Positions 19,763 to 51,865 of a stretch of 64,000 bases of DNA are shown here, piece by piece. Positions within the stretch are counted from its first letter, which is position 1, and the number at the start of each line of letters is the position of its first letter. A program made the translations under genes and the position numbers. Source of the stretch: an archaeon (lineage in GTDB: Archaea; Iainarchaeota; Iainarchaeia; Iainarchaeales; 0-14-0-20-34-12); contig JBBSVU010000016.1 of the NCBI GenBank assembly GCA_038046645.1, positions 652 to 64,651 on the forward strand, written 5' to 3'. Under the pieces are notes generated by a model that worked only from the letters and a program-made list of their open reading frames with translations, searched no databases and was not told the DNA's origin.

Positions 19763-19844
19763 GCCCTTTCTTTTATTTTTTCCTTCATTTTAGGGTAAAG
19801 TGTTAATTCTTTTTATCTGTTTCCGGATAACGTGCCAATTCTTT

Positions 19845-20387
19845 TTATTTATTTTCCCTATTTAACCTTGCCTTTTCTTTCCTTAACCATTCTTCAAATC
19901 TTTCATCATCCTTTATTATTTCTTCAAGAATTCCACTTACTATTTCATAATGTTTTTTGTTTTTCCCATCAAGCCTGAAATAAAGAGGCCCTTGCGAACT
20001 GGTTGAACCGCCAGAGCCAACCTTTAATATTAGGCTTATTGGCTTTGGATTTTCCAGAAAAGCACTCATTGCTTCTTTCGGTTTCAGGTATTCCGGATGT
20101 TTCTCAAGGTTTTTTATTGGCAAGCATACCTGGACAGAATCAGTTGCCCTCACATTTAGGAATCTTTTTAGCCCAGCATTCCTGCTTATGCCCACATTCC
20201 ATTTTTTATTAGACCTTTCATAATGCCCAGCATATTTTATTGGGCAATTGTAATGCATGTGCATATCTTGGGGCGATGCACCAAACCTGTTTCTCTTGAG
20301 TATCTGCCATACAATGCTCCTCTGAGCAGGCCCATGGTCTGCTTTCCGTCTTTCCCTTTTCATTCTAAATGGTTTTTTTGTAGGCAT
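19845..20387 (-). CDS. Hypothetical protein, paralogue A (basic N-terminus)
   Basis: Shares 'MPT.KKP..KRERRK..GP..RS', 'LNVR.TD.V.VC.PI.N..K.P.YL' and 'FRLDG' with 20445..20927. Confidence 0.55.
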   Translation of the reverse strand: MPTKKPFRMKRERRKADHGPAQRSIVWQILKRNRFGASPQDMHMHYNCPIKYAGHYERSNKKWNVGISRNAGLKRFLNVRATDSVQVCLPIKNLEKHPEYLKPKEAMSAFLENPKPISLILKVGSGGSTSSQGPLYFRLDGKNKKHYEIVSGILEEIIKDDERFEEWLRKEKARLNRENK

Positions 20388-20444
20388 ATCTGAACATAGA
20401 ATATTGTGTTCAATTAGAAATAAAAATAGAAGGGATTATATTAT

Positions 20445-20927
20445 TCACGTTTTTTTCATATCCCTTTGCGCTAATGTTTCAAGCACTTTGCCCACTATTT
20501 CAGGGTGCTTTGCCCCATCCAACCTAAAGAAAAGCGTTCCAAAAAAATCATTGCCCGGAACCTTTACAAGCAGGGTTATTTCTTCTTTATTTTCCCTAAA
20601 AATTTCCAAAGCTTTTTCAGACTCTAAATATGCCGGATTCTTTCCAATATTATATATTGGTGAGCATACCTCAACTTTATCAGTTTCCCTTACGTTTAGC
20701 ACTTCTTTTAATTCATCCAACCCTTTGAGATTATATTTGCTTGGCGCTCTCGCAAATATCCCGGAAAAATGTGTTGCACTGCTTTTTTTTGTAAGTACAC
20801 TTTGATATGGTGCGCCAAACCTGGCTTTTTTTGAAAAAAATCTGATAAGTTTGCTTCTTGAATTAGGCCCGTAGTTTACTTTCCTTCTTTCCCTTTTTCT
20901 TGCAACAGGTTTTTTTATAGTAGGCAT
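20445..20927 (-). CDS. Hypothetical protein, paralogue B (basic N-terminus)
   Basis: Tandem paralogue of 19845..20387. No known motif recognised. Confidence 0.55.
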   Translation of the reverse strand: MPTIKKPVARKRERRKVNYGPNSRSKLIRFFSKKARFGAPYQSVLTKKSSATHFSGIFARAPSKYNLKGLDELKEVLNVRETDKVEVCSPIYNIGKNPAYLESEKALEIFRENKEEITLLVKVPGNDFFGTLFFRLDGAKHPEIVGKVLETLAQRDMKKT

Positions 20928-20977
20928 AATAATAGCTATAATCCATAATTAAAAATAAAAAACAGATGGGCGTGCGG

Positions 20978-21205
20978 TTAAATTAATTTTCCAAATTCTT
21001 CTCTTGTTATTTGCAGGTCTTTTTTGATTATTTTGAGCAATAATCCGGGCCCAATTGGTTCATTTCCGTGAATTGGGATTGTGGTTTTTCTTCCATCAGG
21101 ATGCGCAAATCTATGATGGCTTCCATCAATTCGTGTTTGTTCAAAACCAAGCTCTTTCAGGATTTTAATTAACTTACCTGCTTTTATTGCTTTTAATTTG
21201 CTCAC
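20978..21205 (-). CDS. hicA: HicA-family mRNA-interferase toxin
   Basis: 'LIKILKELGFEQTRIDGSHHRFAHPDGRKTTIPIHGNEPIGPGLLLKIIK'. The start codon is GTG (21203-21205). Confidence 0.8.
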   Translation of the reverse strand: MSKLKAIKAGKLIKILKELGFEQTRIDGSHHRFAHPDGRKTTIPIHGNEPIGPGLLLKIIKKDLQITREEFGKLI

Positions 21206-21328
21206 TCATAACGTCTGGCTTGCGGAAGCCATTGCCTTCAGGCAATGGTATCGTATTTTTTCTTGAAACATTAACAGTATTGTTCCGCAAGCCCACGCCT
21301 TTAGGCGTGGGTTCCCAGACGTTATGAC
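21203..21328 (+). repeat. Structured palindromic element E1 (126 nt)
   Basis: 13-bp outer stem 21206-21218/21315-21327. 9-bp inner stem 21219-21227/21283-21291. 8-bp tetraloop hairpins at 21229-21248 and 21292-21311. GC-rich relative to flanks. Confidence 0.65.
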
Positions 21329-21540
21329 TATACCACAATCTTTTGGATTCCAATTAAAGTAGTGTTAGTAATTTCTTCTTTCTCTTTGAGACAAAGCTTG
21401 ATAGCTTCTTTGGTCCTTTTCATTAATTCATCAAGGGTTTTTGCTTGCGTATGGCATCCTTCTAATTCTGGAACATCAGCAATAAGCCAGTTATCTTCAT
21501 CCTTTTCTATTATTACAGTAAATTCTCTTTCCATAAGCAT
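21328..21540 (-). CDS. hicB: HicB-family antitoxin (UPF0150-like)
   Basis: 'FTVIIEKDEDNWLIADVPELEGCHTQAKTLDELMKRTKEAIKLCL'. TAG stop at 21328-21330. Confidence 0.75.
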   Translation of the reverse strand: MLMEREFTVIIEKDEDNWLIADVPELEGCHTQAKTLDELMKRTKEAIKLCLKEKEEITNTTLIGIQKIVV

Positions 21541-39763: not shown

Positions 39764-40042
39764 TCAATCTTTACTTTGTTTGTACCATCTCTCATATTGT
39801 TTGTGATTTCCAACAAAATGTATTTCCTTTACTTTTTCTTTTTCATTTATTTTAATAACAATACGATATTGCCCTGCTTCAATAACATAAAAGTCTAATC
39901 CGTGCTTAAGATGCCTGGTTTTTGTTTCTTCTTTCTGTTTTTGTATTTTGTTCCAGATTGATTCTCTTGCTGTTTTATCCATCTTTGCAAAGTATATGTC
40001 CCAATCATGGAAAAAAGATATTTTGTATCCCATAGGGGTCAC
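39764..40042 (-). CDS. RelE/ParE-family toxin
   Basis: 'FAKMDKTARESIWNKI' and 'YVIEAGQYRIVIKINEKEKVKEIHFVGNHKQYERW'. Confidence 0.7.
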   Translation of the reverse strand: MTPMGYKISFFHDWDIYFAKMDKTARESIWNKIQKQKEETKTRHLKHGLDFYVIEAGQYRIVIKINEKEKVKEIHFVGNHKQYERWYKQSKD

Positions 40043-40288
40043 TTACTTGAATCCATACTTTTTCTTTACTTCTTCTTCTGTCAGATATTTTTGGTTTTTC
40101 TTTTTCATTTGTTTGTCCTGTTTTAAGATTTTCCTTGCAACCAGATCCAGTTCTGATGCACTTAAATCATCCAGGATATGATATTCTTTTCCCAATTCTA
40201 AAATTCCTGCCCTTATTGCTTCGGTTTTTGTCTTGAAATAACCTTTTGCAATTAAGATGCTGAGAACATCTTCAGGGACACCTTCCAT
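40043..40288 (-). CDS. RHH-type antitoxin
   Basis: 'YFKTKTEAIRAGILELG'. Directly abuts the toxin start. Confidence 0.6.
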   Translation of the reverse strand: MEGVPEDVLSILIAKGYFKTKTEAIRAGILELGKEYHILDDLSASELDLVARKILKQDKQMKKKNQKYLTEEEVKKKYGFK

Positions 40289-40338: not shown

Positions 40339-40420
40339 AAATATATAAATAATACGGATTTGCCTGATAAGTACTCGTCTAAATCCTATATATACTTTTC
40401 CCTCAGCTATTACCATATAT

Positions 40421-40541
40421 CACTCACAACGTTTGGCTTGCAACGCCCATGTATTTATCTATAAATAAAGTGATATTTACAAATTTAATACTGTGATTTG
40501 CAAGCCTATGCCTAGAGGCATAGGTTCCCAAACGTTGTGAC
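40421..40541 (+). repeat. Structured palindromic element E2 (121 nt)
   Basis: 13-bp outer stem 40424-40436/40528-40540. 7-bp inner stem 40437-40443/40498-40504. 8-bp tetraloop hairpin 40505-40524. Same 'cac...ttc-stem-c' frame as E1. Confidence 0.65.
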
Positions 40542-40565
40542 ATAATTATTTGAAGGGGGATTATT

Positions 40566-41624
40566 TTGGCACAAAAAAAGAAACCTGAAAAAGTTGCACA
40601 TAAGAAAATTGACACGCAAATAAAGACATTGAGGAAAGGCCTTGAGAAAGAAGTGTCTTTTGCTAAAAAAGTCAGCAAGGCAACAAAAGAGCATGATGAG
40701 GAGCTTGAGGTATTGAAAAACGAGCTTGAAAAATTGAAAGCCAAGAAAAAGCGAAGTTATCTTTCTGATTATAACAAGTTTATGCGCTCCCAGATAAAAT
40801 CAGGCAAGACATTTAAGCAAGCTGTTGCTTTATGGAAGAAAAAGAAGAAAGATGATGAAAGGAAATCAAAAGGTTCAAAAAGAACAGCTTATAATATTTT
40901 CATTTCTTCCCAGCTTAAGCAGGGAAAAACAATGAAGCAGGCGATTGCAGCATGGAATGATTTCAAGAGTGGAAAAGTAAAGAAAAGGATTGTTTACAAG
41001 AGAATTTTATCAAAACCAAAGGTGGTATACAGAAACAAGGTAGTATATCGTAATAGAAATAAGCTTGTTTACAGAAACAAAATAGTGCCAAAAATAGTTT
41101 ATAGGAACAGAGTTGTAAAAACCGATGTTCCAAAAGTAATCCGCCGTAAGAAAACTATAAAACCGGTTGTTCCAAAAGTAGTTCATCGAAAAAGGATAAT
41201 TAAACCAGTGGAAAAACCAGAACCAAAACATGTTTCAAGGATTAGGGTTGTGAGAAGAAATGTCTTCCCTACCGAAGAATTGGAAAGGGTTTTTCTGAAG
41301 TACAAGCCGGAAACGCACATAGTTGAAAAGGAAGTGTTCCCAGCTGAAAAAATAAAAGAAGTGCTTGATTCAGTAATGCACTCAAAGCCTGAAACAGTTG
41401 TGCATTATGCAGATGATGTTTCAGATGAAGAAACCGCTTTAAGGATGCTTGAGATATATCTTAAAGAAATAGCTTGGTCAAACCATAAAGATAAGCTGGA
41501 TGTTGACCAAATTATAAACACATATTTCTATGCGCTTTCAAGGATAAAAAGAAAGGATATAGAAATGCATAAAATTTTAGAAGCTCTGAATAAGGAAAGG
41601 ATTAGAAAGGTTGAGGGTGAATGA
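40566..41624 (+). CDS. Lysine-rich repeat protein (possible nucleic-acid-binding)
   Basis: TTG start 7 nt after 'GGGGGA'. Duplicated '(S/T)(D/A)YN.F..SQ.K.GKT.KQA.A.W' motif. '(V/I)VYRN(K/R)' occurs five times, and 'VPKV..RK..IKPV' twice. Confidence 0.6.
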   Translation: MAQKKKPEKVAHKKIDTQIKTLRKGLEKEVSFAKKVSKATKEHDEELEVLKNELEKLKAKKKRSYLSDYNKFMRSQIKSGKTFKQAVALWKKKKKDDERKSKGSKRTAYNIFISSQLKQGKTMKQAIAAWNDFKSGKVKKRIVYKRILSKPKVVYRNKVVYRNRNKLVYRNKIVPKIVYRNRVVKTDVPKVIRRKKTIKPVVPKVVHRKRIIKPVEKPEPKHVSRIRVVRRNVFPTEELERVFLKYKPETHIVEKEVFPAEKIKEVLDSVMHSKPETVVHYADDVSDEETALRMLEIYLKEIAWSNHKDKLDVDQIINTYFYALSRIKRKDIEMHKILEALNKERIRKVEGE

Positions 41625-41862: not shown

Positions 41863-41904
41863 GGAAAAAATTCTTACTTTTTTCTATTTTTTTATTATTT
41901 TTGG

Positions 41905-42939
41905 CTATGCCATATTTTTCAATGCAGAAGCCAGTATTTTTTTTGACAATTCATATTCCTTCAATGATACTCTCTCCTCCTTTGTATGATCCAGTTTTGA
42001 GTCTCCGGCTCCATATGCAAGGATAGGGCAATTCCATTCCCTGGCAAATATATTCATGTCACAGCTCCCGGTTTTTATCTTGTAGCTTGGGTTTAAGCCA
42101 TGCGAGCGTATTGCTGAAATAAATGCTCTTGCCAAGAAAGAATTTTTATCGGCTTTTACTGCATGCAATTCTTCTGATATTTCAATTTTGCAATCATTTT
42201 TATTTTGTGCCATCATGAATTCTCTGAATTTCACATACGGAAAATCCAAGGAAGTCCTTATGTCAATTTTTGCACCGCATTCCTCATATATTCCATCAGA
42301 GCTTGAATTGATTGCAATCAGCGATGCATTTGAATTGTTGAATGAAAGCTCTTTTTGTGTAAATCCCTCTTTTATTTGGTTGTAAAAATTTATTGCCGAA
42401 TCGCAGGCATTTTCATTTGCATGCCCTGTATGGAAAACCCCTTTTTTAGTTTCATAAATTAAAGAAATTCTGCCCCTGTATCCTATTGTTATTGCTGAAA
42501 CCCCTGATGGTTCTCCAATGATGCATGCATTCGGCTTTATTTGTTTTTTAAAAAAATGCGCCCCTTTTGATTTCGATTCCTCGCCAACACAGGCAGCAAC
42601 AATTATTTGATAATCCCGGGAATCTAAAAAATCAGCCGAGGATTCAACAAATGCGCATAATGAAGCCTTTGCATCAACGCTTCCCCTGCCATATAAAAAA
42701 CCATCAGAGATTTTTACAGGTAACTGCCCTTTTACGGTGTCAATATGCCCTGCCAGCACTATTTTCTTATTTCCCTTCCCAGCAATCCCTATTGCATTCC
42801 CTGCTTTATCCCTTTTTGCATCCAATCCGAGTTTTTTCATTTCATCAATAAGAAATGAAACAGCATTATTCTCATTCCCTGATTCACTTGGGATTGAAAC
42901 TAATTTTTCCAATAATTCATTCCTAATGTTATGGCTCAT
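41905..42939 (-). CDS. lysK: [LysW]-lysine hydrolase (ArgE/M20 family)
   Basis: M20 motifs 'LAGHIDTV' and 'GRGSVDAK'. Last gene of the lysW cluster. Confidence 0.75.
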   Translation of the reverse strand: MSHNIRNELLEKLVSIPSESGNENNAVSFLIDEMKKLGLDAKRDKAGNAIGIAGKGNKKIVLAGHIDTVKGQLPVKISDGFLYGRGSVDAKASLCAFVESSADFLDSRDYQIIVAACVGEESKSKGAHFFKKQIKPNACIIGEPSGVSAITIGYRGRISLIYETKKGVFHTGHANENACDSAINFYNQIKEGFTQKELSFNNSNASLIAINSSSDGIYEECGAKIDIRTSLDFPYVKFREFMMAQNKNDCKIEISEELHAVKADKNSFLARAFISAIRSHGLNPSYKIKTGSCDMNIFAREWNCPILAYGAGDSKLDHTKEERVSLKEYELSKKILASALKNMA

Positions 42940-44104
42940 TTAATCCACTTCTTACTTTTTCTGCAACCACATTTGCATATTCCTTTGTAAATGTCAATGG
43001 CGGCAAGAATCTCACAATTGTTTTCCCTGTAGGCATTGCAAGAACTCCGTTCTGCATCAGATTATTTAAAAGCCCATCATTCTTAACTTTCAATTCAAGT
43101 GCAATCATTAATCCTAAGCCGCGTGCTTCCCTAATTTTCTGGTTTTCAATTCCTTTTAATAAATCAACAAAGTATTTTCCAACAATTTCCGCATTTGACA
43201 AAAGATTTTTTTCTTCAATATGCTTTAATATTGCTAAAGAAACAGCACAGGCAAGCGGATTTCCGCCAAAGGTAGAGCCATGTGTTGCCTTTTCAGGGAT
43301 AAAATCTTCCCGCATTATTGTTGCCCCTATTGGATAGCCACAGCCCAAAATTTTTGCGCAGGTCATTATGTCAGCTTCAACATTGAAATGCTCGGAAGCA
43401 AACCATTTTCCTGTCCTTCCAAGGCCTGTTTGCACCTCATCAATTATCAATAAAGCATCATTTTTCACGCATATTTCCTTTACTGCTTTCAAATAATCCT
43501 TGTGCGGAATGATTACCCCGCTTTCCCCCTGAATAGGCTCAAGGATTACTGCTGCGGTTTCTTTGTTTACTGCTTTTTCCATTGCCTCAATATTATTATA
43601 GGGGATGTGCTCAAATTCGGGAACCAAAGGCTCAAATGGTTTTCTGTAATTTGGCTTCCATGTTGCAGACAACGATCCAAAAGTCCTTCCATGGAATGCC
43701 ATCATTGTTGAGATTATTTTTTTCTTCCCAGTAAACATCCTTGCGAATTTCAATGCAGCTTCCACAGATTCTGTCCCAGAATTGCATAGATATGTCCTTG
43801 ATAATTTTCCGGGCGCTATTGATGCAAGCTTTTCAAGAAGTTTGGTGCGAACATCATTGTAAAAAAGCTCAGAGCAGTCTATCATTATTTGTGACTGTTC
43901 AATCAAGGCATTTGTTATTGCAGGATTGCATCTCCCTATTCCCACAGAACCATGGCCTGCAAGGCAGTCGATGTATTCTTTCCCGTTTGCATCATATACT
44001 AGGCAATCCTTTCCCCTTACGAGCGCAAGGTTCCTTTTAGGATAAACGCCAGAAGTATATTTTTCCTCCAATTTTATAATATCTTCATTGCCCAATTGAT
44101 TCAT
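42929..44104 (-). CDS. lysJ: [LysW]-aminoadipate semialdehyde aminotransferase (class III)
   Basis: 'LIIDEVQTGLGRTGKWFA', PLP-lysine region 'DIMTCAKILG', and 'THGSTFGGNPLA'. Confidence 0.85.
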   Translation of the reverse strand: MNQLGNEDIIKLEEKYTSGVYPKRNLALVRGKDCLVYDANGKEYIDCLAGHGSVGIGRCNPAITNALIEQSQIMIDCSELFYNDVRTKLLEKLASIAPGKLSRTYLCNSGTESVEAALKFARMFTGKKKIISTMMAFHGRTFGSLSATWKPNYRKPFEPLVPEFEHIPYNNIEAMEKAVNKETAAVILEPIQGESGVIIPHKDYLKAVKEICVKNDALLIIDEVQTGLGRTGKWFASEHFNVEADIMTCAKILGCGYPIGATIMREDFIPEKATHGSTFGGNPLACAVSLAILKHIEEKNLLSNAEIVGKYFVDLLKGIENQKIREARGLGLMIALELKVKNDGLLNNLMQNGVLAMPTGKTIVRFLPPLTFTKEYANVVAEKVRSGLNEP

Positions 44105-44113
44105 TTTTTCCCC

Positions 44114-44911
44114 TCACATTTCAATTACTGTTGCATTGCCAGCATATGCTTCACTGATTGGGTTTTTTACGGAAGCTGAGGCAATTATTACCCTTTTAAC
44201 GCCATTCTGCAGCGCTTCCTTTGCCCCCAGCAATTTTATCTTCATCCGGTCTTTTGCAAATTCTTTTATCACTTTATCAATCTCGTCGAATTTTATTTTT
44301 TTGATCAAGCTGCCCTTGTCATTAATGTCTTTCAAAACCCCGGGCACATCACTCATTATTATCAATTCATCAGCATTCATTGCAGCAGCCACGATTGCAG
44401 CTGCCCTGTCTCCATCCACATTGACAGCATAATTATCATGGCTTATTGCCGGCGGGGTTAAAACAGGCAAATATCCTCCTTCAAGAAGCATTTTTATCAA
44501 TTGAACATTTACCTTTTCAACTTTGCCAGTCAAATCCCCATGCAAAACCATTTTCTTTCCGTTCTCGATTATTTTTATTGAATCCTTCCTTTTTGCCTCA
44601 AAAATCCTTCCTGAAATTCCGCTTAACCCAACAGCATTTACCCCCAATTTCTGCAATTTTGAAACAATCATTGAATTCATTTTTCCAACATAGGCCATCT
44701 GGAACAATTCCATTGTTTTTTCATCAGTTGCCCTGCTTGTATATCCTGAAACAGATTCAACGAATTTTGGTTTATGCCCCAATGCATTTGACAATCTGTC
44801 AAGCTCATCAGAGCCTCCATGCACAAGGACAAAATTTTTATGCTGCACCAAATCCTGCAGGAATGAATCATAATCTATTTTGTCGCTTCCCCCTATTTTA
44901 ACCACAAACAT
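44114..44911 (-). CDS. lysZ: [LysW]-aminoadipate kinase
   Basis: 'MFVVKIGGS' and 'LVHGGS'. ATG 44911 is preceded by a G-rich RBS; the track ORF extends to 44986, overlapping lysY. Confidence 0.8.
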   Translation of the reverse strand: MFVVKIGGSDKIDYDSFLQDLVQHKNFVLVHGGSDELDRLSNALGHKPKFVESVSGYTSRATDEKTMELFQMAYVGKMNSMIVSKLQKLGVNAVGLSGISGRIFEAKRKDSIKIIENGKKMVLHGDLTGKVEKVNVQLIKMLLEGGYLPVLTPPAISHDNYAVNVDGDRAAAIVAAAMNADELIIMSDVPGVLKDINDKGSLIKKIKFDEIDKVIKEFAKDRMKIKLLGAKEALQNGVKRVIIASASVKNPISEAYAGNATVIEM

Positions 44912-44933
44912 TTTCTTGCCCCCTTCCATTGAT

Positions 44934-45965
44934 TTATATTGGATGCAGGCCCATAAAACCAAGCCCTGTTTTTTCATTAAAGCCATGCATTATATTCATG
45001 CATTGCACAGCTTGGCCTGCCGAGCCCCTGCAAATATTGTCAATTGCTGACATTACAATCAATCTGCCATTTATCATATCCTTTTCAAAGCCTATGTCAC
45101 AAAAATTTGTTCCGCTTAGGAATTTGGGCTCAGGATATTTATGCAAGGTATTTTTCTCCTTCACAAACCTGACAAAAGGTTCCTTCCCATATCTTTGTAT
45201 GTACGCCTTCCAGACATCTTTTTCTTCATATTCCCCCTCTATGAATATATGGCAAGTGCTTAATATGCCCCGAACCATTTCGATTGCATGCGGCGTAAAT
45301 GATATTTTCTTGCCCTCTACATTTAATTCCTGAATCATTTCTGCAGTGTGCCTGTGCCCATATGGTTTGTAGCTTCTTACACAATCTCTTCTTTCTGGAT
45401 GGTGTGTTCCCAGATTATGGTCAAGGCCTGATGCAGCCGAGCCTATTTTTGAATCAATAATGATATTTGAAATCTTGAAATTCTCCACAATCGGCTTAAG
45501 CCCCAAAATTACAGATGTAGCTAGGCAGCCAGGCCCTGCAACATAGTCTGCTTTTTTTAATTCCTCGCGGTGCAATTCAGGCAAACCATAAACAGCATTC
45601 TTCAATCTTTCAGGAACAGGATGCTCATAATTATACCACTTAGGGTAATCATCCTTATTTTTTAATCTGAAATCAGAGCTCAAATCAATTATTTTATTTG
45701 CTTTATCCAAAAAAGTTTCCTGAAAATTCAATCCAATGCCGTGCGGCAATGCTGAAAATAAAACATCAGTTTTAGGAAGCTCATTTATTGAGGTAAATTT
45801 TAATGTTGTAGCTCCCCTTAAATTCGGGTGAATCTTCTCAACAGTTTTCCCTACCTCATCCTTCCCGCTTATCCCTATTACTTCAACCTCGGGATGCGCG
45901 AGCAATATTCTTAATAATTCTCCCCCGACATATCCCGAAGCCCCAACAATGCTAGCTGTAATCAT
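44934..45965 (-). CDS. lysY: [LysW]-aminoadipyl-phosphate reductase (ArgC family)
   Basis: 'IVGASGYVGGELLRIL' and active site 'VAGPGCLATS'. Confidence 0.85.
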   Translation of the reverse strand: MITASIVGASGYVGGELLRILLAHPEVEVIGISGKDEVGKTVEKIHPNLRGATTLKFTSINELPKTDVLFSALPHGIGLNFQETFLDKANKIIDLSSDFRLKNKDDYPKWYNYEHPVPERLKNAVYGLPELHREELKKADYVAGPGCLATSVILGLKPIVENFKISNIIIDSKIGSAASGLDHNLGTHHPERRDCVRSYKPYGHRHTAEMIQELNVEGKKISFTPHAIEMVRGILSTCHIFIEGEYEEKDVWKAYIQRYGKEPFVRFVKEKNTLHKYPEPKFLSGTNFCDIGFEKDMINGRLIVMSAIDNICRGSAGQAVQCMNIMHGFNEKTGLGFMGLHPI

Positions 45966-46798
45966 CTTTTCCCCTTCGCGATTAAATATTCAATAATTTT
46001 TTCAGGTATGTTTACGCCGGTAGGCAAAATACTATTCTTGAATTCCATATTGTGGTTTACCTCGTGCACAAGCAACCCATTTTCTGATTCCATTACATCA
46101 ATTGCCAATATTCCTGAACCAACTGCTTTTGCAGCCTTAATGCAAATCTCATTCAATTCATCATCAACCATGCAGTTTTCAGTCTTTCCGCCTCTTGCAG
46201 TATTTGTTATCCAATGGTCAGATTTTCTGTAAATTGCATAGATTGTTTCCTCGCCGATAACGCATGCCCTTATATCCCTGTCAGGCTTTTTTATCAATTC
46301 CTGAATGTAAAAAATTGAGTGAAGGTAATTTCCCAATGTTTTTTTGTGTTCAATCAATGCTTCTGCAGCATTCCTGTCATTTACTTTTGCCAGCAATCTC
46401 GCCCATGACCCAATAACCGGCTTCATTACACAAGGATAGCCGATCTCTTCAATAGCATTAAGTGCACTTTCCTCAGAAAAAGCAATAATTGTTTTTGGGG
46501 TTGGAACGTTGTTTTCTTTTAATGCTATTGAGGTCAATGCCTTGTCTCCGCATATCCTTATTGTGTCAAATGAATTCACAGTTTTTATTCCATAACTTTC
46601 AAGAAACCTGCTTGCATATAAGCTCCTTGAGAATGAAACATCCCTGTCCAGGACTATGTCATAATCCAATGATTTTTCAAGAGAGAACATCAACCCATCG
46701 GAATTTACATTCTCCAAAATGACATTCTTCCTTTTTGCTTCATCAAAAAGCAACATTTCCTCTTTCCTCAATTTTGACAACAACATTCCAATCTTCAT
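45962..46798 (-). CDS. lysX: LysW-alpha-aminoadipate ligase (RimK/ATP-grasp)
   Basis: ATP-grasp motifs 'YPCVMKPVIGSWARL' and 'GLLVHEVNHNMEF'. Lies adjacent to lysW. Confidence 0.85.
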   Translation of the reverse strand: MKIGMLLSKLRKEEMLLFDEAKRKNVILENVNSDGLMFSLEKSLDYDIVLDRDVSFSRSLYASRFLESYGIKTVNSFDTIRICGDKALTSIALKENNVPTPKTIIAFSEESALNAIEEIGYPCVMKPVIGSWARLLAKVNDRNAAEALIEHKKTLGNYLHSIFYIQELIKKPDRDIRACVIGEETIYAIYRKSDHWITNTARGGKTENCMVDDELNEICIKAAKAVGSGILAIDVMESENGLLVHEVNHNMEFKNSILPTGVNIPEKIIEYLIAKGKR

Positions 46799-46799
46799 T

Positions 46800-46964
46800 T
46801 TATTCCCCCCAGTCTTCTTCCTCTTTCGGGGCTTCTTTTAATGCAATTGGGTTTATGCTTGCAACTTCCAATTCTGTTCCGCATTGCGTGCATGTTACCA
46901 ATTCGCCCTTCAGTGTATTTTCACCTAACTCTATCCCACTGCTGCATACCGGACATTCTGCCAT
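46800..46964 (-). CDS. lysW: Amino-group carrier protein LysW (54 aa; below the ORF-track cutoff)
   Basis: Manual translation: MAECPVCSSGIELGENTLKGELVTCTQCGTELEVASINPIALKEAPKEEEDWGE*. Zn-ribbon CPxC...CxxC and the signature C-terminal 'EDWGE'. Confidence 0.9.
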   Translation of the reverse strand: MAECPVCSSGIELGENTLKGELVTCTQCGTELEVASINPIALKEAPKEEEDWGE

Positions 46965-47963
46965 TTACAACACCTCCATTTCTTGTATTATTGAATTTAG
47001 CATTTCATTTGTTTTTGATTTTCCGCCAAGGTCTGGCGTAAGGCTTTTTCTGCCAACAATCACGCTTTCAACAGCAAGCCTAACCTTATTTGCCCCTTCT
47101 TTTTCCCCAAGGAAATCAAGCATCAGGGCTGCAGACAAAATTGCCCCGCACGGATTTGCAATGCCTTTTCCTGCAATATCCGGAGCAGAGCCATGTACGG
47201 GCTCAAATAATCCAATTTTTTCACCAATGTTTGCAGAAGGGCATAATCCAATGCTTCCGGCAATTCCAGCAACCAAGTCAGACAATATGTCACCATACAG
47301 GTTTGGCGCAAGTATTGTCCTGTATTTTGCAGGATTTACCACTAATTTCATCGCAAGCGCATCAACTATTTCAGAATCAAATTCCTTCCCCAATTTTTTC
47401 AGGGTTTCTGATGCAACACTCAGAAATAAAACATCACTAGGCTTTACGACATTTGCCTTGTGCGTTATTGTTATTTTTCCATTTGCAAACCTTGCCGCTG
47501 CATTCGCAATCCTTTCTGTAGCCTTTTTTGAGATTATCCTCTGGTTAATTGCAATTCCCAATTTTTCATCCATTTCCCCAATCCCGGAATATAAGCATTC
47601 GGTGTTTTCCCTCACAATAAGGATGTCCACATTTTCATCCCCATATCTTCCCAATCCCTTATAAGTCCTTGCAGGCCTTATGTTTGCAAACAAATCAAGG
47701 TTCTGCCTTAATGAAAGTATTGCACTCTTGGCTTTCATGTCTTTTGAAGGGGTGGTGACAGCCCCGAATAATATTGCGTCTGATTTTTTTGCCATTTCGA
47801 TTGTTTCTTCGGGAACCGGAACACCAGTTTTTTCATGGCATGCAAACCCGGCATATGCTTCTTCATATTTTGCATTAAAATTCAGGGCATTTAATACTTT
47901 GATTGCCGCTTCAGTTACTTCTGGGCCAATGCCATCTCCCTTGATTACTAAAATTTTTTTCAT
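46965..47963 (-). CDS. Homoisocitrate (isocitrate/isopropylmalate-family) dehydrogenase
   Basis: 'ILVIKGDGIGPEV', 'NLYGDILSD', and 'GSAPDIAGKGIANP'. Operon context favours homoisocitrate as substrate. Confidence 0.8.
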   Translation of the reverse strand: MKKILVIKGDGIGPEVTEAAIKVLNALNFNAKYEEAYAGFACHEKTGVPVPEETIEMAKKSDAILFGAVTTPSKDMKAKSAILSLRQNLDLFANIRPARTYKGLGRYGDENVDILIVRENTECLYSGIGEMDEKLGIAINQRIISKKATERIANAAARFANGKITITHKANVVKPSDVLFLSVASETLKKLGKEFDSEIVDALAMKLVVNPAKYRTILAPNLYGDILSDLVAGIAGSIGLCPSANIGEKIGLFEPVHGSAPDIAGKGIANPCGAILSAALMLDFLGEKEGANKVRLAVESVIVGRKSLTPDLGGKSKTNEMLNSIIQEMEVL

Positions 47964-48052
47964 AAGAATACTCCTTCTATTCCCTTATTATTTTTTATGA
48001 CCGAAATCCGACATAATAAAACATTTTTGTCTGATATAAAACAAAACCAAAT

Positions 48053-48193
48053 CACTGACGCCCCATGGGTGCGCGGAAGCCGCACCCCTTGGGGTGCGAA
48101 GGATCGCACCCATTTCATTCCTTTCTGTATTTGGCTTCCGCCTGAAGCCCACTCTACTAAAGACGCCATGGGCTTCAGCCTATGGAGCGTCAC
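48053..48193 (+). repeat. Structured element E3 (141 nt), divergent relative of E1/E2
   Basis: Outer stem 48056-48066/48182-48192. Twin hairpins share the identical stem gggtgcg/cgcaccc (48067-48087 and 48092-48111). gcggaagcc (48073-48081) pairs with ggcttccgc (48133-48141). 10-bp hairpin 48142-48178. Confidence 0.55.
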
Positions 48194-48684
48194 AATAAGC
48201 CCTCCAATGATTTTTTCCTGTTCAAATATGGAATAATTCCGCCAGCTTTGATTATTTTCTGCATGTTCTTTGATGTTTTCATTATCCCTGCTTTTTTGTT
48301 TTTGCCCTTATTATTTAAAATCCCATTTTTTTCATCAAAGCCAGCTTCATCCCCATCCTCAAACTCAGCTGAATTTTGAATAAAATATGCCGGAAGCCCT
48401 ATGTTGATTGCATTTCTGTAAAAGATCCTTCCAAATGATTCTGCAAACACTGCTTTTATTCCCGAGGCTTTTATTGCCAATGCAGCACTCTCCCTGCTTG
48501 AGCCGCAGCCAAAATTTTTTCCAGCAACAATGAAATCGCCTGAAGAAACCTTTGCTGAAAATTCAGGCCTGTATTCTGCAAAGCATATTTCCCCCAATGC
48601 CTTTCCATCAACAGTAAGGTTCATCCTTCCAGGAGTTATTAAGTCAGTATTTATATTTTCACCAAATTTCCATATCCTTGCCAT
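48190..48684 (-). CDS. hacB: Homoaconitase/isopropylmalate isomerase small subunit
   Basis: 'GENINTDLI' and '[11 protein letters not shown]'. Confidence 0.8.
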
Positions 48685-48708
48685 TCTTTCACCAAATAAA
48701 TATATTGC

Positions 48709-49944
48709 TTAACAAAGCTCCCCTTCAATTGCGCTCAATGCAGCAGTTATTGGCGATCCCAAATAAATCTCAGAATTTGGGGATCCCATCCTTCCGCAGA
48801 AATTCCTGTTTTGTGTAGATAAACAAACTTCTTTGTCCCCCAAAACGCCAGAGTGCCTTCCCAAGCAAGGGCCGCAGCCAGCATTGCATACAATTGCCCC
48901 GGCATTGAGGAAAATATCCATAAGTCCTTCACCCATTGCTTTCTGATATTCCTGAACTGTTGAAGGAACAACAATCAATCGTGCATTTTTGTGCACACTT
49001 TTTCCCTTCAATATTTTTGCAGCCAATTCCAAATCCTCCAACCTTCCATTAGTGCATGTGCCTATTACAATTTGATCCAATTTTATCCCCTTAGCTTCTG
49101 AAACAGCCTTAACATTTTTAGGTTCATGCGGGCAGGCAACAAGCCTTTCCAATTCATTTAAGTTTATTTCAAATAAAGATTCATATTTTGCATTTTCATC
49201 TGCTTTCATCTCCCCAACATTTTTTCCTTTTTCTTCAAAGAACTTCTTTGTTATGCTATCCGAAGGGAATAACCCGATTTTGGCACCGCATTCAACGCTC
49301 ATGTTTGCAATTGTTATCCTGTCTGAAATTGCCATGTCAGCAACAGCGTTTCCTGAATATTCTACTGATTTATACGCAGCGCCATTTGCCCCTAATATCC
49401 TGATTATTTCAAGCGCAATATCCTTAGAAACAATATCTTTTCCTACTTTTCCATTCATTTCTGCCTTAATTGTTTCAGGAACCATGAACCAGTTTTTCCC
49501 AGTTGCCCAAGATACCGCAATGTCTGTTGAACCCATTCCAATTCCCAGGGAAGAAACAGCACCAAATGTGCAGGTGTGGGAATCTGCCCCGGCAATTAAA
49601 GTATTTGGCAAAGCAATGCCTTCATCTATCAGCAAATGGTGGCAAATGCCCTTCCCATAGAAAATGTCCAATATTGCATGTTTCTCTGCAAATCCCATTA
49701 TTTCTTTCTGCATGTTTGCCGCCTGCACGCTTGCTGCAGGGACAACATGGTCAAAAACAAAAACAACTTTTTCCGCCCTGATTTTAAATCCCTTTAATTC
49801 ATTGAATGATTTTATTGCAAGTGATGTAGTAGCGTCATGGGACATTATTTTGTCAACGTTTGCAATTACTGTGTCGCCAGCAAAAGCCATCCTGCCTGAT
49901 TTTTCTGAGAATATTTTTTCAACAATGGTTTGCCCATTATCCAT
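48709..49944 (-). CDS. hacA: Homoaconitase/isopropylmalate isomerase large subunit
   Basis: 'DKIMSHDATT', 'GADSHTCT', and 'GTCTNGR...NAGCGPCLG'. Confidence 0.85.
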   Translation of the reverse strand: MDNGQTIVEKIFSEKSGRMAFAGDTVIANVDKIMSHDATTSLAIKSFNELKGFKIRAEKVVFVFDHVVPAASVQAANMQKEIMGFAEKHAILDIFYGKGICHHLLIDEGIALPNTLIAGADSHTCTFGAVSSLGIGMGSTDIAVSWATGKNWFMVPETIKAEMNGKVGKDIVSKDIALEIIRILGANGAAYKSVEYSGNAVADMAISDRITIANMSVECGAKIGLFPSDSITKKFFEEKGKNVGEMKADENAKYESLFEINLNELERLVACPHEPKNVKAVSEAKGIKLDQIVIGTCTNGRLEDLELAAKILKGKSVHKNARLIVVPSTVQEYQKAMGEGLMDIFLNAGAIVCNAGCGPCLGRHSGVLGDKEVCLSTQNRNFCGRMGSPNSEIYLGSPITAALSAIEGELC

Positions 49945-51325
49945 TTAAAATCACCATTGTGTTTGTTTTCTGCACATTTTCCATGCTTCTTATTTTATCC
50001 ACAAGCAGGTTCAATTTCCTTACAGAATCGGTTTTTGCATGCAGGCATAAATCGTATTCTCCAGCTATTTCTAAGCAGTTTGTTATCTCAGGGTGCTTTG
50101 CAAATCCATTTTTCAAATCATTGATATAGCCGTCATGGTTTGCAGTTACAAATACCAATGCCTGTGCGTTCCTCGTATTCTCGCGTGATATTCCCAAAAC
50201 ATTCTCAATTATTTTTATTACATCAAACTCTGTGCAGAATTTCCTGTTCCTATTTTTTATTTGTGATATTATTTCCTTTATCTGCGCATCATTTGCTTTA
50301 TGCCCTAGCTTTGAAGTAAAATGCTTCACTGCAGCAGTCCCTGCAAATTTGTCCACGAGTATTGCCCTTTCCCTCCCAAATTCTTCAGGCCTTAGGAATT
50401 CATAAGTAAGTGGATTTTTCAATACTGCCGAAGTATGTACGCCTGCCTTGTGTGAAAATACATTTTTCCCAACAATCGGCTTGTGGTTCGCATTGAATAT
50501 TCCAGAATATCTTTCAACCATTGCGCTTAATTCAGGAAGCATTTCTATCTTCCAGCCATTTTTCACATTATAGATTTTTTTTAGGGAAACAGCCAATTCA
50601 TCCAATGTAGTAATTCCCGCCCTTTCCCCCAGCCCATTTACCGTAACATCAATCAAGGTTATTCCGGCTTCATATGCGGCAATTGCATTTGCGGTTGCTA
50701 ACCCCAAATCATTATGGCAATGGATATGCAAAGGAAGTTTTGTTGATTTTACCAGCCCTGAAACAAGTTCTGATGTTTTTCTTGGGGTTAAATTTCCTAC
50801 AGTGTCTGCAATGCTCCCTCTTGTTGCACCAGCAGCCTTTGCAGTGTTATATACTTTTGTTAAAAAATTAATATCAGTTCTGCTTGCATCTTCCGCAGTA
50901 AACCTTATCTTCAGCCCATAATTTGAGGCATATTCAATGACTTCCGTAATTTTTTCAAGAGCTTTTGCCCTTGGCATGTTGAATTTGTATTTCAGGCTTA
51001 TATCGGATGTGCCCCAAAAAAGGCCAATCCATTCTGTATTCATCTGTGCAACAAGGTCAATATTTTCCTTTGTTGCTAGGGAATGGCAAAGCAGCGGTGT
51101 TTTCAATCCAAGATTTGATACCTCTTTAATTGAGTTTTTTATGTCTTCGGAAACGCCAGGATTTCCTACCTCGATTATGTCAACACCAAATTTAGATAAT
51201 GCAGTGGCAATTTTTATCCTTTCATCGCTGTTGAATGAGACGCCTGCTGTTTGTTCCCCTTCCCTTAGCGTGCTGTCCAATATTTCAACCATAAAACCAC
51301 TTGCCAAATAGTGGCCCTCTACCAC
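49937..51325 (-). CDS. Homocitrate synthase (LeuA/NifV family) with C-terminal RAM-like domain
   Basis: 'ILDSTLREGEQTAGV' and 'HCHNDLGLATANA'. C-terminal ~78 aa 'ALVFVTAN...HPEITNCLEIAGEYDLCLHAKTDSVRKLNLLVDKI..MENVQKTNTMVIL' match the Lrp/AsnC ligand-domain pattern. Confidence 0.85.
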   Translation of the reverse strand: MVEGHYLASGFMVEILDSTLREGEQTAGVSFNSDERIKIATALSKFGVDIIEVGNPGVSEDIKNSIKEVSNLGLKTPLLCHSLATKENIDLVAQMNTEWIGLFWGTSDISLKYKFNMPRAKALEKITEVIEYASNYGLKIRFTAEDASRTDINFLTKVYNTAKAAGATRGSIADTVGNLTPRKTSELVSGLVKSTKLPLHIHCHNDLGLATANAIAAYEAGITLIDVTVNGLGERAGITTLDELAVSLKKIYNVKNGWKIEMLPELSAMVERYSGIFNANHKPIVGKNVFSHKAGVHTSAVLKNPLTYEFLRPEEFGRERAILVDKFAGTAAVKHFTSKLGHKANDAQIKEIISQIKNRNRKFCTEFDVIKIIENVLGISRENTRNAQALVFVTANHDGYINDLKNGFAKHPEITNCLEIAGEYDLCLHAKTDSVRKLNLLVDKIRSMENVQKTNTMVILNG

Positions 51326-51732
51326 TTTTTGAGGACCATAATAGTGTCTGTTGCCTTTATCTCTTTTTTTGCCCTTAATTCATCAATAAATGAGTTCATT
51401 TCATCGATTGCCTGGAATGAGCAAATTAATACGGCATCGAATTCACCCGAAGTTTCAAATAGCTCATTAATCTCAGATAATTGTTTTAATCTGGGATAAA
51501 ACTCAGTTGCATTTATTTGTGGTTCAACCTTTATGCTTACCAAGCATCTGATTTTATTATCATCGCGCAGGACTGCAGTATAGCCACGAATGTATTCCTT
51601 TTCAAGGTTCTTTATCCTGTATCTCACAGCAGATTCTGACAAGCCAAGTCCTTTAGCTATTTCAGTATTTGTTATTCTTGCATTCTTGGTCAAAAGCCCT
51701 ATTATTTTGCGATTTAGTTCATCCATAATCAT
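51319..51732 (-). CDS. Lrp/AsnC-family transcriptional regulator
   Basis: 'LNRKIIGLLTKNARITNTEIAKGLGLSESAVRYRIKNLEKE' plus a RAM domain. Overlaps the homocitrate synthase start by 7 nt. Confidence 0.8.
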   Translation of the reverse strand: MIMDELNRKIIGLLTKNARITNTEIAKGLGLSESAVRYRIKNLEKEYIRGYTAVLRDDNKIRCLVSIKVEPQINATEFYPRLKQLSEINELFETSGEFDAVLICSFQAIDEMNSFIDELRAKKEIKATDTIMVLKKW

Positions 51733-51865
51733 AATATTAACGAAAGTATTTAAATATTTAACTATATTTAGCGAATATCGCAGTATGGGATTGCGAATCC
51801 GTTTAATTTTGAGTTAAAAATAACCAAAAAATAAGCCTCTTTTTAGAGTATCTTCTATTTTTTAT

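What the first reader, a model, noticed from the sequence alone, without database searches (positions are those of the whole stretch)
21203..21328. 126-nt GC-rich multi-stem element exactly fills the hicB-hicA junction and supplies the hicA GTG start
What the sequence shows:
- The element runs from the hicA start codon (GTG = element bases 21203-21205, 'cac' on the plus strand) to the hicB TAG stop (21328-21330).
- Its architecture is a 13-bp perfect outer stem (tcataacgtctgg/ccagacgttatga) and a 9-bp inner stem (cttgcggaa/ttccgcaag).
- It also has two 8-bp tetraloop hairpins (ccattgcc-ttca-ggcaatgg and cccacgcc-ttta-ggcgtggg).
- Related copies sit at 40421-40541 and 48053-48193, all in the same orientation.

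hicB/hicA genes normally abut or overlap. This therefore looks like a small mobile (MITE/REP-like) element inserted into an operon junction, or a structured RNA that gates toxin translation.

I do not recognise it as any known RNA family. It is not tRNA-like, and I saw no C/D box or hammerhead core.
Basis: partly seen in the sequence, partly recalled or inferred. Interest (0 to 1): 0.7.

Follow-up and report, generated by a model that had tools for sequence, protein, structure and literature searches.

The report
Small hairpin-rich mobile DNA repeat
The 126-base folded element between the hicB and hicA genes is a small jumping-DNA repeat without a gene of its own. It inserted recently into a gene pair that overlaps by one base in close relatives, so it is a new example of a known kind of genomic parasite, not a new RNA machine.

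Summary
Window 21203-21328 folds into a very stable Y-shaped structure: a 13-bp outer stem, a 9-bp inner stem and two 8-bp tetraloop hairpins. Two further elements sit at 40421-40541 and 48053-48193.

Empty sites settle what it is. Six assemblies of close relatives (HicA 93% identical) read ...GTGGTATAGTGGGC..., where the hicB TAG stop overlaps the hicA GTG start by one base. The window carries a precise 123-nt insertion there. The third copy is a precise 138-nt insertion after the stop of a homoaconitase small-subunit gene, and a relative has that site empty.

All three copies have TCAC on their left flank and end in GAC or CAC. No unambiguous target duplication is visible. The GTG start is ancestral and is not supplied by the element.

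Stems are kept by compensatory changes (5 double changes, 0 single). In the copy shared with a Crystal Geyser Diapherotrites genome, 0 of 58 paired bases changed against 9 of 63 unpaired.

There is no Rfam, tRNA, phage or plasmid match, and no transposase in the window.

Verdict: this is a non-autonomous structured mobile repeat of a DPANN archaeon. It is closest to the archaeal small mobile repeats, palindrome-associated transposable elements (PATEs) and MITE/REPIN-type elements. The enzyme that moves it is unknown; single-strand, hairpin-guided transposition is favoured. Weakened hicA translation is a likely side effect.

The parts
21202..21205 (+). Left flank TCAC of copy 1. Its last three bases are the complement of the ancestral hicA GTG start.
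   Evidence: All three copies are preceded by TCAC. Relatives with an empty site read gccCAC|Tatacc on this strand.
21206..21328 (+). Copy 1: the 123-nt inserted segment. Its placement is ambiguous by 3 nt because ACT occurs on both sides.
   Evidence: This segment is absent from L014-L019, which otherwise align base for base. It is identical in another assembly of the same population, L001.
21206..21218 (+). Outer stem P1, 5' arm (tcataacgtctgg). It pairs with 21315-21327.
   Evidence: Perfect 13-bp inverted repeat (I20). Two compensatory changes against copy 2.
21219..21227 (+). Inner stem P2, 5' arm (cttgcggaa). It pairs with 21283-21291 (ttccgcaag).
   Evidence: Fold. GCGGAAGCC is shared with copy 3 at the same offset.
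21229..21248 (+). Hairpin P2a: ccattgcc-ttca-ggcaatgg, near the left end.
   Evidence: Fold. Its pattern CCnnnGCC-TTYA-GGCnnnGG is the same as that of P3 (read from the sequence).
21292..21311 (+). Hairpin P3: cccacgcc-ttta-ggcgtggg, near the right end. It is followed by the joiner TTC (21312-21314).
   Evidence: Fold. Two compensatory changes against copy 2.
21315..21327 (+). Outer stem P1, 3' arm (ccagacgttatga).
20978..21205 (-). hicA toxin gene (75 aa). Its GTG start lies directly after the outer stem.
   Evidence: Pfam HicA_toxin, E = 9e-18. 93% identical to P0002 of relatives.
21328..21540 (-). hicB-like antitoxin gene (70 aa). Its TAG stop is at 21328-21330.
   Evidence: Pfam HicB_lk_antitox, E = 1.3e-7.
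40421..40541 (+). Copy 2. P1 is 40424-40436 with 40528-40540, and P3 is 40505-40524. It lies 24 nt upstream of the start codon of gene 40566-41624 (+), and a TATATATA box sits at 40387-40394.
   Evidence: Covariance model score 141 bits. An orthologous copy exists in Ca. Diapherotrites CG08 (L004, L011). Against that copy, 0 of 58 paired bases and 9 of 63 unpaired bases changed.
48056..48193 (+). Copy 3: a 138-nt inserted segment, with TCAC on both sides. P1 is 48056-48069 with 48179-48192, P2 is 48073-48081 with 48133-48141, and P3 is 48143-48151 with 48169-48177.
   Evidence: The site is empty in L020...CTTATTGTGA|TTTG.... Fold -68.9 kcal/mol, z = -6.8.
48190..48684 (-). Homoaconitase/isopropylmalate dehydratase small-subunit gene. 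Its TGA stop is formed by the last 3 bases of the outer stem of copy 3.
   Evidence: Pfam Aconitase_C. The operon context is the LysW-type lysine pathway.

Best explanation
The element is one copy of a family of small (about 120-140 nt) mobile DNA repeats of a Diapherotrites/Iainarchaeia (DPANN) archaeon. The repeats carry no gene and are relatively GC-rich.

Architecture. Each copy has terminal inverted repeats that form an outer stem. Inside are an inner stem and one or two hairpins near the ends, which gives a Y-shaped fold on either strand.

Shown:
- Copy 1 inserted recently and precisely into a hicB-hicA pair whose stop and start codons overlapped by one base (TAGTG). Both reading frames stayed intact.
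- Copy 3 inserted just as precisely at the stop codon of a lysine-pathway gene.
- Every copy sits immediately 3' of TCAC and ends in GAC or CAC. No clear target duplication is visible.
- Stems are maintained by compensatory substitutions.

Inferred:
- The element is moved in trans by an enzyme encoded elsewhere in the genome.
- The asymmetric 4-nt target, the lack of a clear duplication, the near-terminal hairpins and the selection on internal hairpins favour a single-stranded, hairpin-recognising mechanism. This would resemble the HUH/Y1 'peel-and-paste' route of IS200/IS605 and REP elements. I put that sub-claim at about 0.35-0.4.
- As a side effect, the -60 kcal/mol structure now separates hicA from hicB by 123 nt and abuts the GTG. 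No Shine-Dalgarno sequence is visible upstream. Coupled translation of the toxin is therefore probably reduced.
- The older copy 2 probably serves as a structured 5' leader.
For: Empty sites:
- L014-L019, which include GenBank PEXL01000020 of Ca. Diapherotrites CG08, have hicB ending and hicA starting at the same base. They align perfectly to the window apart from the 123 nt.
- L020 has the empty site for copy 3.

Family:
- Three copies share the ends TCACT.A...T.AC (0.33 expected by chance).
- They share the same helix order.
- Copies 1 and 3 share a 9-mer at the same offset.
- Copy 2 has an ortholog in a related genome.

Selection on structure:
- 29 pairs are 100% paired, with 5 double-sided changes and 0 one-sided changes.
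- In copy 2 against its ortholog, 0 of 58 paired and 9 of 63 unpaired positions changed, p = 0.003.

Other points:
- No coding capacity, and no Rfam or tRNA match.
- The two Logan assemblies that reach this copy (L002, L003) end inside it, whereas the ENA contig L001 spans it.
- Related genomes carry other Y-shaped intergenic repeat families.
- Archaeal elements of the same description are documented in Haloquadratum: about 110 bp, prominent terminal inverted repeats, no target duplication, mobilisation unknown (PMC3119063, read).
Against: - No transposase gene was found in the window, in the about 40 ORFs scanned.
- No full-length parent element is known.
- Permissive pattern scans of 185,579 species genomes and of the JGI metagenomes recovered only the ortholog of copy 2. 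The copy 1/2 subtype is therefore not a high-copy, recently burst family in the data searched.
- The source genome itself could not be scanned.
- Copies are diverged. Copy 3 is not significantly detected by the model built from copies 1 and 2.
- The long outer stem joining the two ends is not a feature of classical IS200/IS605 ends.
- Left and right hairpins resemble each other only in copy 1.
- The 1-4 nt shared at each junction means that a very short target duplication cannot be excluded.
- The same orientation of all three copies has a 1-in-4 chance expectation.
Confidence: 0.8

Rival explanations
1. It is a classical MITE. A DDE transposase would recognise the 13-bp terminal inverted repeats as double-stranded DNA, move the element by cut-and-paste, and leave a very short target duplication.
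For: - The element has perfect 13-bp terminal inverted repeats, small size, no coding capacity, empty sites and an intergenic location.
- ACT (copy 1) or TCAC (copy 3) is present on both sides.
- MITEs are reported at high density in some DPANN genomes (PMC11602168).
Against: - If the full inverted repeats are taken as the element, only 1 bp (C) is duplicated.
- The shared bases differ in length between copies (3 against 4).
- For copy 2 the flanks are not identical (ACT against ACA).
- The conserved flank is one-sided (TCAC on the left only), whereas DDE targets are usually symmetric.
- Compensatory changes in the internal hairpin P3 are not explained by recognition of terminal repeats.
- No related transposon is known.
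Confidence: 0.3
2. It is primarily a functional cis-regulatory RNA. An intercistronic structure would have evolved to gate HicA toxin translation or to process the hicBA mRNA.
For: - The structure is very stable and abuts the GTG.
- Stems are under purifying selection in copy 2.
- Copy 2 appears to form the whole 5' leader of its gene. A TATA-like box lies about 27 nt before the start of the element.
Against: - Six assemblies of close relatives run hicBA without it.
- The same element type sits in unrelated contexts and in both senses relative to transcription: copies 1 and 3 are antisense to the + strand genes' sense, and copy 2 is sense.
- No unpaired nucleotides are conserved between the three copies, apart from the TTC joiner between hairpin P3 and the outer stem that copies 1 and 2 share, so no ribozyme- or riboswitch-like core is visible.
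- No Rfam match.
Confidence: 0.1
3. It is an integron attC-type recombination site or another tyrosine-recombinase substrate.
For: - Its size (57-141 bp is typical of attC) and its folded single-strand form fit.
- AAC...GTT lies inside the outer stem of copies 1 and 2.
- Integrons have been reported in DPANN archaea (own knowledge, not checked here).
Against: - The outer stem is perfect, with no extrahelical bases.
- Copy 3 lacks AAC/GTT.
- The insertion boundaries flank the whole structure instead of splitting it at G|TT.
- There is no cassette array and no integrase in the scanned ORFs of the window.
- The elements sit inside operons between housekeeping genes.
Confidence: 0.02
4. It is an independent small non-coding RNA gene family, with three paralogous genes, rather than mobile DNA.
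For: Structure and covariation are shared among copies.
Against: - Presence/absence is precise, with intact flanks, at two loci.
- Copy 1 has no room for its own promoter or terminator (0 nt to either gene).
- Copies 1 and 3 are GC-rich islands with boundaries marked by a conserved flank.
Confidence: 0.05

Closest known systems
[quoted passage not shown] 2011, PMC3119063)
   Same: Both are archaeal, about 110 bp, too short to code, and carry prominent terminal inverted repeats that are unrelated to any known transposon. Neither shows a target duplication, and both are seen as strain-specific insertions with unknown mobilisation.
   Different: There is no sequence similarity. SMR-A elements preferentially insert into the palindromes of IS605-type elements, whereas these elements sit at TCAC sites at gene ends. 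The Y-shaped internal structure and the compensatory changes are not described for SMR-A.
PATEs and IS200/IS605-family ends (single-strand 'peel-and-paste' transposition by TnpA Y1)
   Same: Both have near-terminal hairpins, a conserved 4-nt sequence only on the 5' flank, a similar tetranucleotide at the 3' end, and no duplication. Selection acts on hairpin structure rather than on sequence. Copies share one orientation.
   Different: PATEs lack terminal inverted repeats, whereas here the two ends pair over 13 bp. No TnpA or TnpB was found nearby. The hairpins at the two ends resemble each other only in copy 1. The weak Rfam hit of copy 2 to the IS1341 RNA sot0042 (15.5 bits against a threshold of 88) is not reproduced for copy 1.
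REPINs / REP elements mobilised by RAYT transposases
   Same: Both are short palindromic extragenic repeats that form long hairpins, persist with conserved structure, sit between genes of operons, and can affect mRNA.
   Different: No GTAG or CGTC head of the described type is present (PMC3733652). REP/RAYT systems are described in bacteria. High copy number is not shown here.
Bacterial structured MITEs within operons (Correia/CREE in Neisseria, ERIC/IRU in enterobacteria, RUP in pneumococcus); own knowledge
   Same: They are 100-150 bp, have terminal inverted repeats, fold strongly when co-transcribed, insert between cistrons, and alter expression of the downstream gene.
   Different: Those elements have defined TA or similar duplications and belong to bacterial lineages. 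There is no sequence relation.

Membership tests
MITE (miniature inverted-repeat transposable element) | Short (<~300 bp) and non-coding | tested here: met
   The three copies are 123, 118 and 138 nt. The only ORFs crossing them (the 59-aa ORF 21174-21353 and 46-aa ORF 21187-21327 across copy 1, and the 106-aa ORF 40424-40744 across copy 2) are mechanical ORF-list entries that were not searched for homology.
MITE (miniature inverted-repeat transposable element) | Terminal inverted repeats | tested here: met
   Perfect 13 bp in copies 1 and 2. 14 nt with one mismatch and one wobble in copy 3.
MITE (miniature inverted-repeat transposable element) | Constant-length target site duplication | tested here: inconclusive
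   ACT (3 nt) at copy 1, TCAC (4 nt) at copy 3, and only AC at copy 2. With the full inverted repeats, just 1 nt is duplicated.
MITE (miniature inverted-repeat transposable element) | Presence/absence polymorphism (empty sites) | tested here: met
   Copy 1: L014-L019. Copy 3: L020.
MITE (miniature inverted-repeat transposable element) | Terminal repeats shared with an autonomous transposon | not testable with these tools
   The source genome could not be scanned. No transposase was found in the window ORFs scanned.
IS200/IS605-derived element (PATE) | Conserved short target on the 5' flank only, with no duplication | tested here: met
   TCAC precedes 3 of 3 copies, and the right flanks differ. 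The relatives' empty site for copy 1 reads CCAC.
IS200/IS605-derived element (PATE) | Near-terminal hairpins at both ends, similar to each other | tested here: inconclusive
   Copy 1 has two hairpins of the pattern CCnnnGCC-TTYA-GGCnnnGG. Copy 2 has only the right one, and those of copy 3 differ.
IS200/IS605-derived element (PATE) | Absence of terminal inverted repeats | tested here: not met
   The ends pair over 13 bp.
IS200/IS605-derived element (PATE) | TnpA (Y1) or TnpB present in the genome with matching ends | not testable with these tools
REP/REPIN-RAYT | GTAG- or CGTC-tagged 8-13 bp hairpins in inverted doublets; RAYT gene flanked by them | tested here: not met
   No unpaired GTAG or CGTC head lies next to the hairpins in the described arrangement. 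The RAYT gene is not testable.
Integron attC site | R''/R' boxes (AAC...GTT), extrahelical bases, cassette array with intI, and a crossover that splits the site | tested here: not met
   The stem is perfect and has no bulges. Copy 3 lacks AAC/GTT. The whole structure is the inserted unit, and there is no array or integrase.
Any Rfam RNA family (ribozymes, riboswitches, sRNAs) | Score at or above the family gathering threshold | tested here: not met
   No match in the window at gathering scores. The best sub-threshold hits are chance level.
Archaeal bulge-helix-bulge intron | 3-nt bulge, 4-bp helix, 3-nt bulge at the two boundaries | tested here: not met
   The boundaries lie at the base of a perfect 13-bp helix with no bulges.

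The most novel reading that the evidence does not exclude
A previously undescribed, DPANN-specific class of Y-shaped mobile repeats would be moved as folded single strands to TCAC sites by a hairpin-recognising enzyme, either a divergent HUH transposase or something unknown. The host would then keep them as structured RNA leaders or intercistronic insulators. Copy 2 shows stems frozen while loops drift. Copy 1 would uncouple HicA toxin translation from HicB, which is a tolerated way of silencing a toxin.
Probability: 0.25. Interest if true: 0.6.

Novelty: new member of a known kind. Interest (0 to 1): 0.35.

Why it matters
- It gives a clean before/after example, with base-exact empty sites, of a transposase-free structured repeat entering an overlapping toxin-antitoxin gene pair without damaging either gene.
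- It shows that the tiny genomes of Diapherotrites-type DPANN archaea host several families of such repeats.
- The one-sided TCAC target and the structure-preserving evolution point to a single-strand mechanism whose enzyme is not yet identified in these organisms.
- For annotation, it warns that long 'spacers' in operons of these genomes may be insertions rather than regulatory RNAs.
- It is not a new kind of biology.

Tried and rejected
- Rfam: nothing at gathering thresholds. Permissive local scans gave only chance-level hits. The weak sot0042 (IS1341 RNA) hit of copy 2 is far below threshold and absent for copy 1.
- tRNA/tmRNA: none in the window.
- Pattern scan of GTDB species genomes: only the ortholog of copy 2 in Ca. 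Diapherotrites CG08.
- Pattern scan of JGI metagenomes: 9 hits. 8 are chance matches in GC-rich DNA that do not fold like the element, and 1 is the same CG08 locus.
- Viral contigs: the end pattern gave 0 hits. The P2 pattern gave 73 chance hits in GC-rich phage coding DNA.
- BLAST of copy 1 against phages and of copy 3 against plasmids: no match.
- Covariance model R1: no further copies in about 180 kb of window plus related loci.
- Attempt to reach the rest of the source contig: the long contigs were not returned.
- Readings considered and rejected: attC site, bulge-helix-bulge intron, retron ncRNA (no reverse transcriptase in the ORFs scanned), and hammerhead/twister-type ribozymes (no conserved unpaired core, no Rfam hit).
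- A possible fourth copy just left of the window (L023:1-45) has only the P3-like hairpin module and could not be completed.

Full report
**1. The observation**

The + strand of window 21203-21328 reads:
- CAC
- tcataacgtctgg (outer stem P1, 5' arm)
- cttgcggaa (inner stem P2, 5' arm), then g
- ccattgcc-ttca-ggcaatgg (hairpin P2a)
- a 34-nt AT-rich loop
- ttccgcaag (P2, 3' arm)
- cccacgcc-ttta-ggcgtggg (hairpin P3)
- ttc (joiner)
- ccagacgttatga (P1, 3' arm), then c

Supporting measurements:
- The 13-bp outer repeat is perfect (pair I20).
- Either strand folds into the same Y-shaped three-way junction. The energy is about -61 kcal/mol against -30 +/- 3.4 for dinucleotide shuffles (z = -9.2 and -8.5).
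- The flanking ORFs are a HicA toxin (20978-21205, minus; Pfam E = 9e-18) and a short HicB-like antitoxin (21328-21540, minus; E = 1.3e-7).

**2. Are the other two copies related?**

Copy 2 (40421-40541) is clearly related.
- A covariance model built from copy 1, copy 2 and the ortholog of copy 2 scores copy 2 at 141 bits.
- Across the 29 modelled pairs, every cell is a standard pair.
- Five pairs differ on both sides between copies 1 and 2 (two in P1, one in P2, two in P3). None differs on one side only.
- The large loop is essentially unalignable between the two copies.

Copy 3 (48053-48193) is much more diverged.
- The same model gives it only 10.5 bits. That is noise level for the whole window, although the alignment spans exactly 48053-48193 on the + strand.
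- Its membership rests on other evidence:
  - the same order of helices, P1-P2-P2a-loop-P2'-P3-P1';
  - the same ends and flank, TCACT.A...T.AC (3 matches in the window, all three copies; 0.33 expected);
  - the exact 9-mer GCGGAAGCC, which occurs in the window only in copies 1 and 3, 19-20 nt from the start in both;
  - the fact that it too is an insertion (section 4).

No other copy exists in the window.

**3. Whose genome is this?**

- Exact-protein look-ups place the window in Hainich groundwater assemblies.
- A permissive pattern for the two ends found one locus among 185,579 species genomes: Candidatus Diapherotrites archaeon CG08_land_8_20_14_0_20_34_12.
- The same pattern found the same organism in a JGI metagenome.
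- That locus is the ortholog of copy 2, upstream of the same lysine-rich gene.
- The window is therefore from a DPANN archaeon of the Diapherotrites/Iainarchaeia group, with about 35% GC.

**4. Empty sites: the decisive result**

Copy 1:
- The HicA of the window has a 93%-identical homolog, P0002.
- The six loci shown for it (of 10 contigs on record), from at least four studies and including GenBank PEXL01000020 of the CG08 genome, all show hicB ending and hicA starting on the same nucleotide.
- Aligned to the window, they read ...ATTGTGGTATAGTGGGCAAATT.... They are collinear with the window on both sides, and the window has exactly 123 extra bases.
- In the ancestral arrangement the TAG stop and the GTG start overlap by one base (TAGTG).
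- In the window the same TAG and GTG are both intact on either side of the insertion, because 3 nt (ACT on the + strand) are present at both junctions.
- The GTG is therefore not contributed by the element, contrary to the title of the finding.

Copy 3:
- It lies between a homoaconitase/isopropylmalate-dehydratase small-subunit gene and the following dehydrogenase gene.
- The operon is a LysW-type lysine pathway.
- A relative with 86% protein identity (L020) reads ...CTTATTGTGA|TTTG.... The window has 138 extra bases at the bar, with TCAC (+ strand) on both sides. The TGA stop is unchanged.
- A more distant relative has the two genes overlapping.

Two independent, base-exact presence/absence pairs show that these are mobile insertions.

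**5. Ends and target**

On the + strand the junctions are:
- copy 1: gcTCAC|TCATAACG...CGTTATGAC|tatacc
- copy 2: taTCAC|TCACAACG...CGTTGTGAC|ataatt
- copy 3: aaTCAC|TGACGCC...GAGCGTCAC|aataag

Reading these:
- The left flank is TCAC in all three (CCAC in the relatives' empty site for copy 1). The right flanks are unrelated to each other.
- The element ends in GAC or CAC.
- If the full inverted repeats are taken as the element, only one base (C) is duplicated.
- The shared bases are 3 nt at copy 1, 4 nt at copy 3 and 2 nt at copy 2.
- A constant-length target duplication, the hallmark of DDE cut-and-paste MITEs, is therefore not evident.
- The data fit better an element that inserts 3' of a short one-sided target and carries a similar tetranucleotide at its own 3' end, as IS200/IS605-family elements and their gene-less derivatives do.
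- This is an inference. No transposase of any kind was found among the about 40 window ORFs scanned. The rest of the source genome could not be reached.

**6. Selection on structure**

- Besides the compensatory changes between copies 1 and 2, copy 2 can be compared with its ortholog in the CG08 genome.
- None of 58 paired positions differs, against 9 of 63 unpaired positions plus a 3-nt indel (Fisher p = 0.003).
- The neighbouring gene DNA is about 81% identical between the two genomes.
- Co-variation of terminal repeats could be explained by recognition by a transposase. Compensatory change in the internal hairpin P3 and frozen stems in an old copy argue that the folded form itself matters, whether as single-stranded DNA or as RNA.
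- All helices are Watson-Crick on both strands in copies 1 and 2. In copy 3 each strand has one wobble and one mismatch, so the strand that matters cannot be told.
- The three copies sit in both senses relative to transcription. Copies 1 and 3 lie inside minus-strand operons, and copy 2 lies upstream of a plus-strand gene.
- This argues against a single dedicated RNA function as the reason for the family's existence.

**7. Likely consequences (inferred)**

Copy 1:
- hicA was previously translated by stop/start coupling.
- It is now 123 nt from the hicB stop, directly behind a 13-bp perfect helix, with no Shine-Dalgarno-like sequence in CCAGACGTTATGAGTG.
- Other genes here have clear GGAGG/GGGGG sites.
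- Reduced toxin translation is the expected effect, and it is the harmless direction for a toxin-antitoxin pair. This may be why the insertion survives.
- The insertion is present in both assemblies that span this site (the window's source contig and the ENA contig L001). Two Logan assemblies of the same population (L002, L003) carry its first 29 and 61 bases and end inside it.

Copy 2:
- A conserved TATA-like box (TATATATA, 40387-40394) lies about 27 nt before the element.
- The element ends 24 nt before a GGGGG-TTG start.
- The whole element is therefore probably the 5' leader of that gene, which could explain its conserved stems.

**8. Comparison with what is known**

- No Rfam family matches and there are no tRNAs.
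- The features of integron attC sites, bulge-helix-bulge introns, retron RNAs and small ribozymes were checked against the sequence and are not met (see the membership table).
- The closest descriptions are the transposase-free archaeal elements catalogued in Haloquadratum walsbyi (PMC3119063):
  - A-type small mobile repeats are about 110 bp with prominent inverted terminal repeats unrelated to known transposons, no target duplication, and enigmatic mobilisation.
  - PATEs have near-terminal palindromes, a 4-5 bp 5' targeting sequence and no duplication, and derive from IS605-type elements.
- The present family combines the terminal repeats of the first with the near-terminal hairpins and one-sided target of the second.
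- Bacterial REPINs and structured intercistronic MITEs are functional analogues.
- A census paper reports high MITE densities in some DPANN genomes (PMC11602168).
- The kind is therefore known. This sequence family, its Y-shaped fold and its TCAC target appear undescribed.

**9. Verdict**

- The structure and its copies are real.
- The mobile-element reading is correct and is now supported by empty sites.
- The 'supplies the GTG' detail is wrong.
- The 'RNA gate' is at most a by-product of the insertion.
- Novelty: a new member of a known kind.
- Interest is moderate to low (0.35). It would rise only if the moving enzyme proves unusual or the elements prove to be systematically exapted.

Noticed in passing
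L011:7700-7835 and L014:8780-8915 (Ca. Diapherotrites CG08-type relatives): A second, AT-rich, roughly 135-nt Y-shaped repeat (outer stem plus two or three hairpins with 3-nt loops) occurs as two near-identical copies in different loci. In L011 it sits where the window has the 1310-aa ORF 53291-57223.
   Followed up: partly
L101:545-830 and L101:10405-10544 (Ca. Iainarchaeum sp. GCA_028713935.1): Intergenic regions here are packed with GC-rich hairpins and Y-shaped folds (for example -58.7 kcal/mol, z = -7.4). This suggests that structured intergenic repeats are common in this archaeal group.
   Followed up: partly
L023:1-45, about 650-605 nt left of window position 1: TGGGAACCCACACCC-TTTA-GGGTGTGG resembles the joiner-plus-P3 module of the element in the opposite orientation. 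It is followed directly by a 125-aa C-terminal fragment of a predicted GTPase that NCBI annotates as a separate protein (P0241). Four assemblies break here. It may be a truncated copy next to a disrupted gene.
   Followed up: partly
window 19763-20977: A 1.2-kb segment carries two paralogous minus-strand ORFs (20445-20927, 160 aa; 19845-20387, 180 aa). Both have basic N-termini and no Pfam match. The segment lies between hicA and the AdoHcy hydrolase gene and is absent from relatives L014-L019.
   Followed up: partly
window 41900-51870: A 10-kb LysW-type lysine biosynthesis operon (GC 39-40% against about 35%) is absent at this position in the CG08 relative (L011) but present in L020 and L021. 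Copy 3 lies inside it.
   Followed up: partly
window 39764-40288 (-): A two-gene, toxin-antitoxin-like pair (81 aa and 92 aa) lies upstream of copy 2. It is replaced by unrelated sequence with GC-rich hairpins in the CG08 relative. Similarity between the two genomes starts only about 35 nt before copy 2.
   Followed up: no
window 47964-48052: The spacer after copy 3 has a 6-nt difference (TTTGGTTTTGTTTT against TTTGTTTT in L020), which looks like a small tandem duplication next to the insertion.
   Followed up: no
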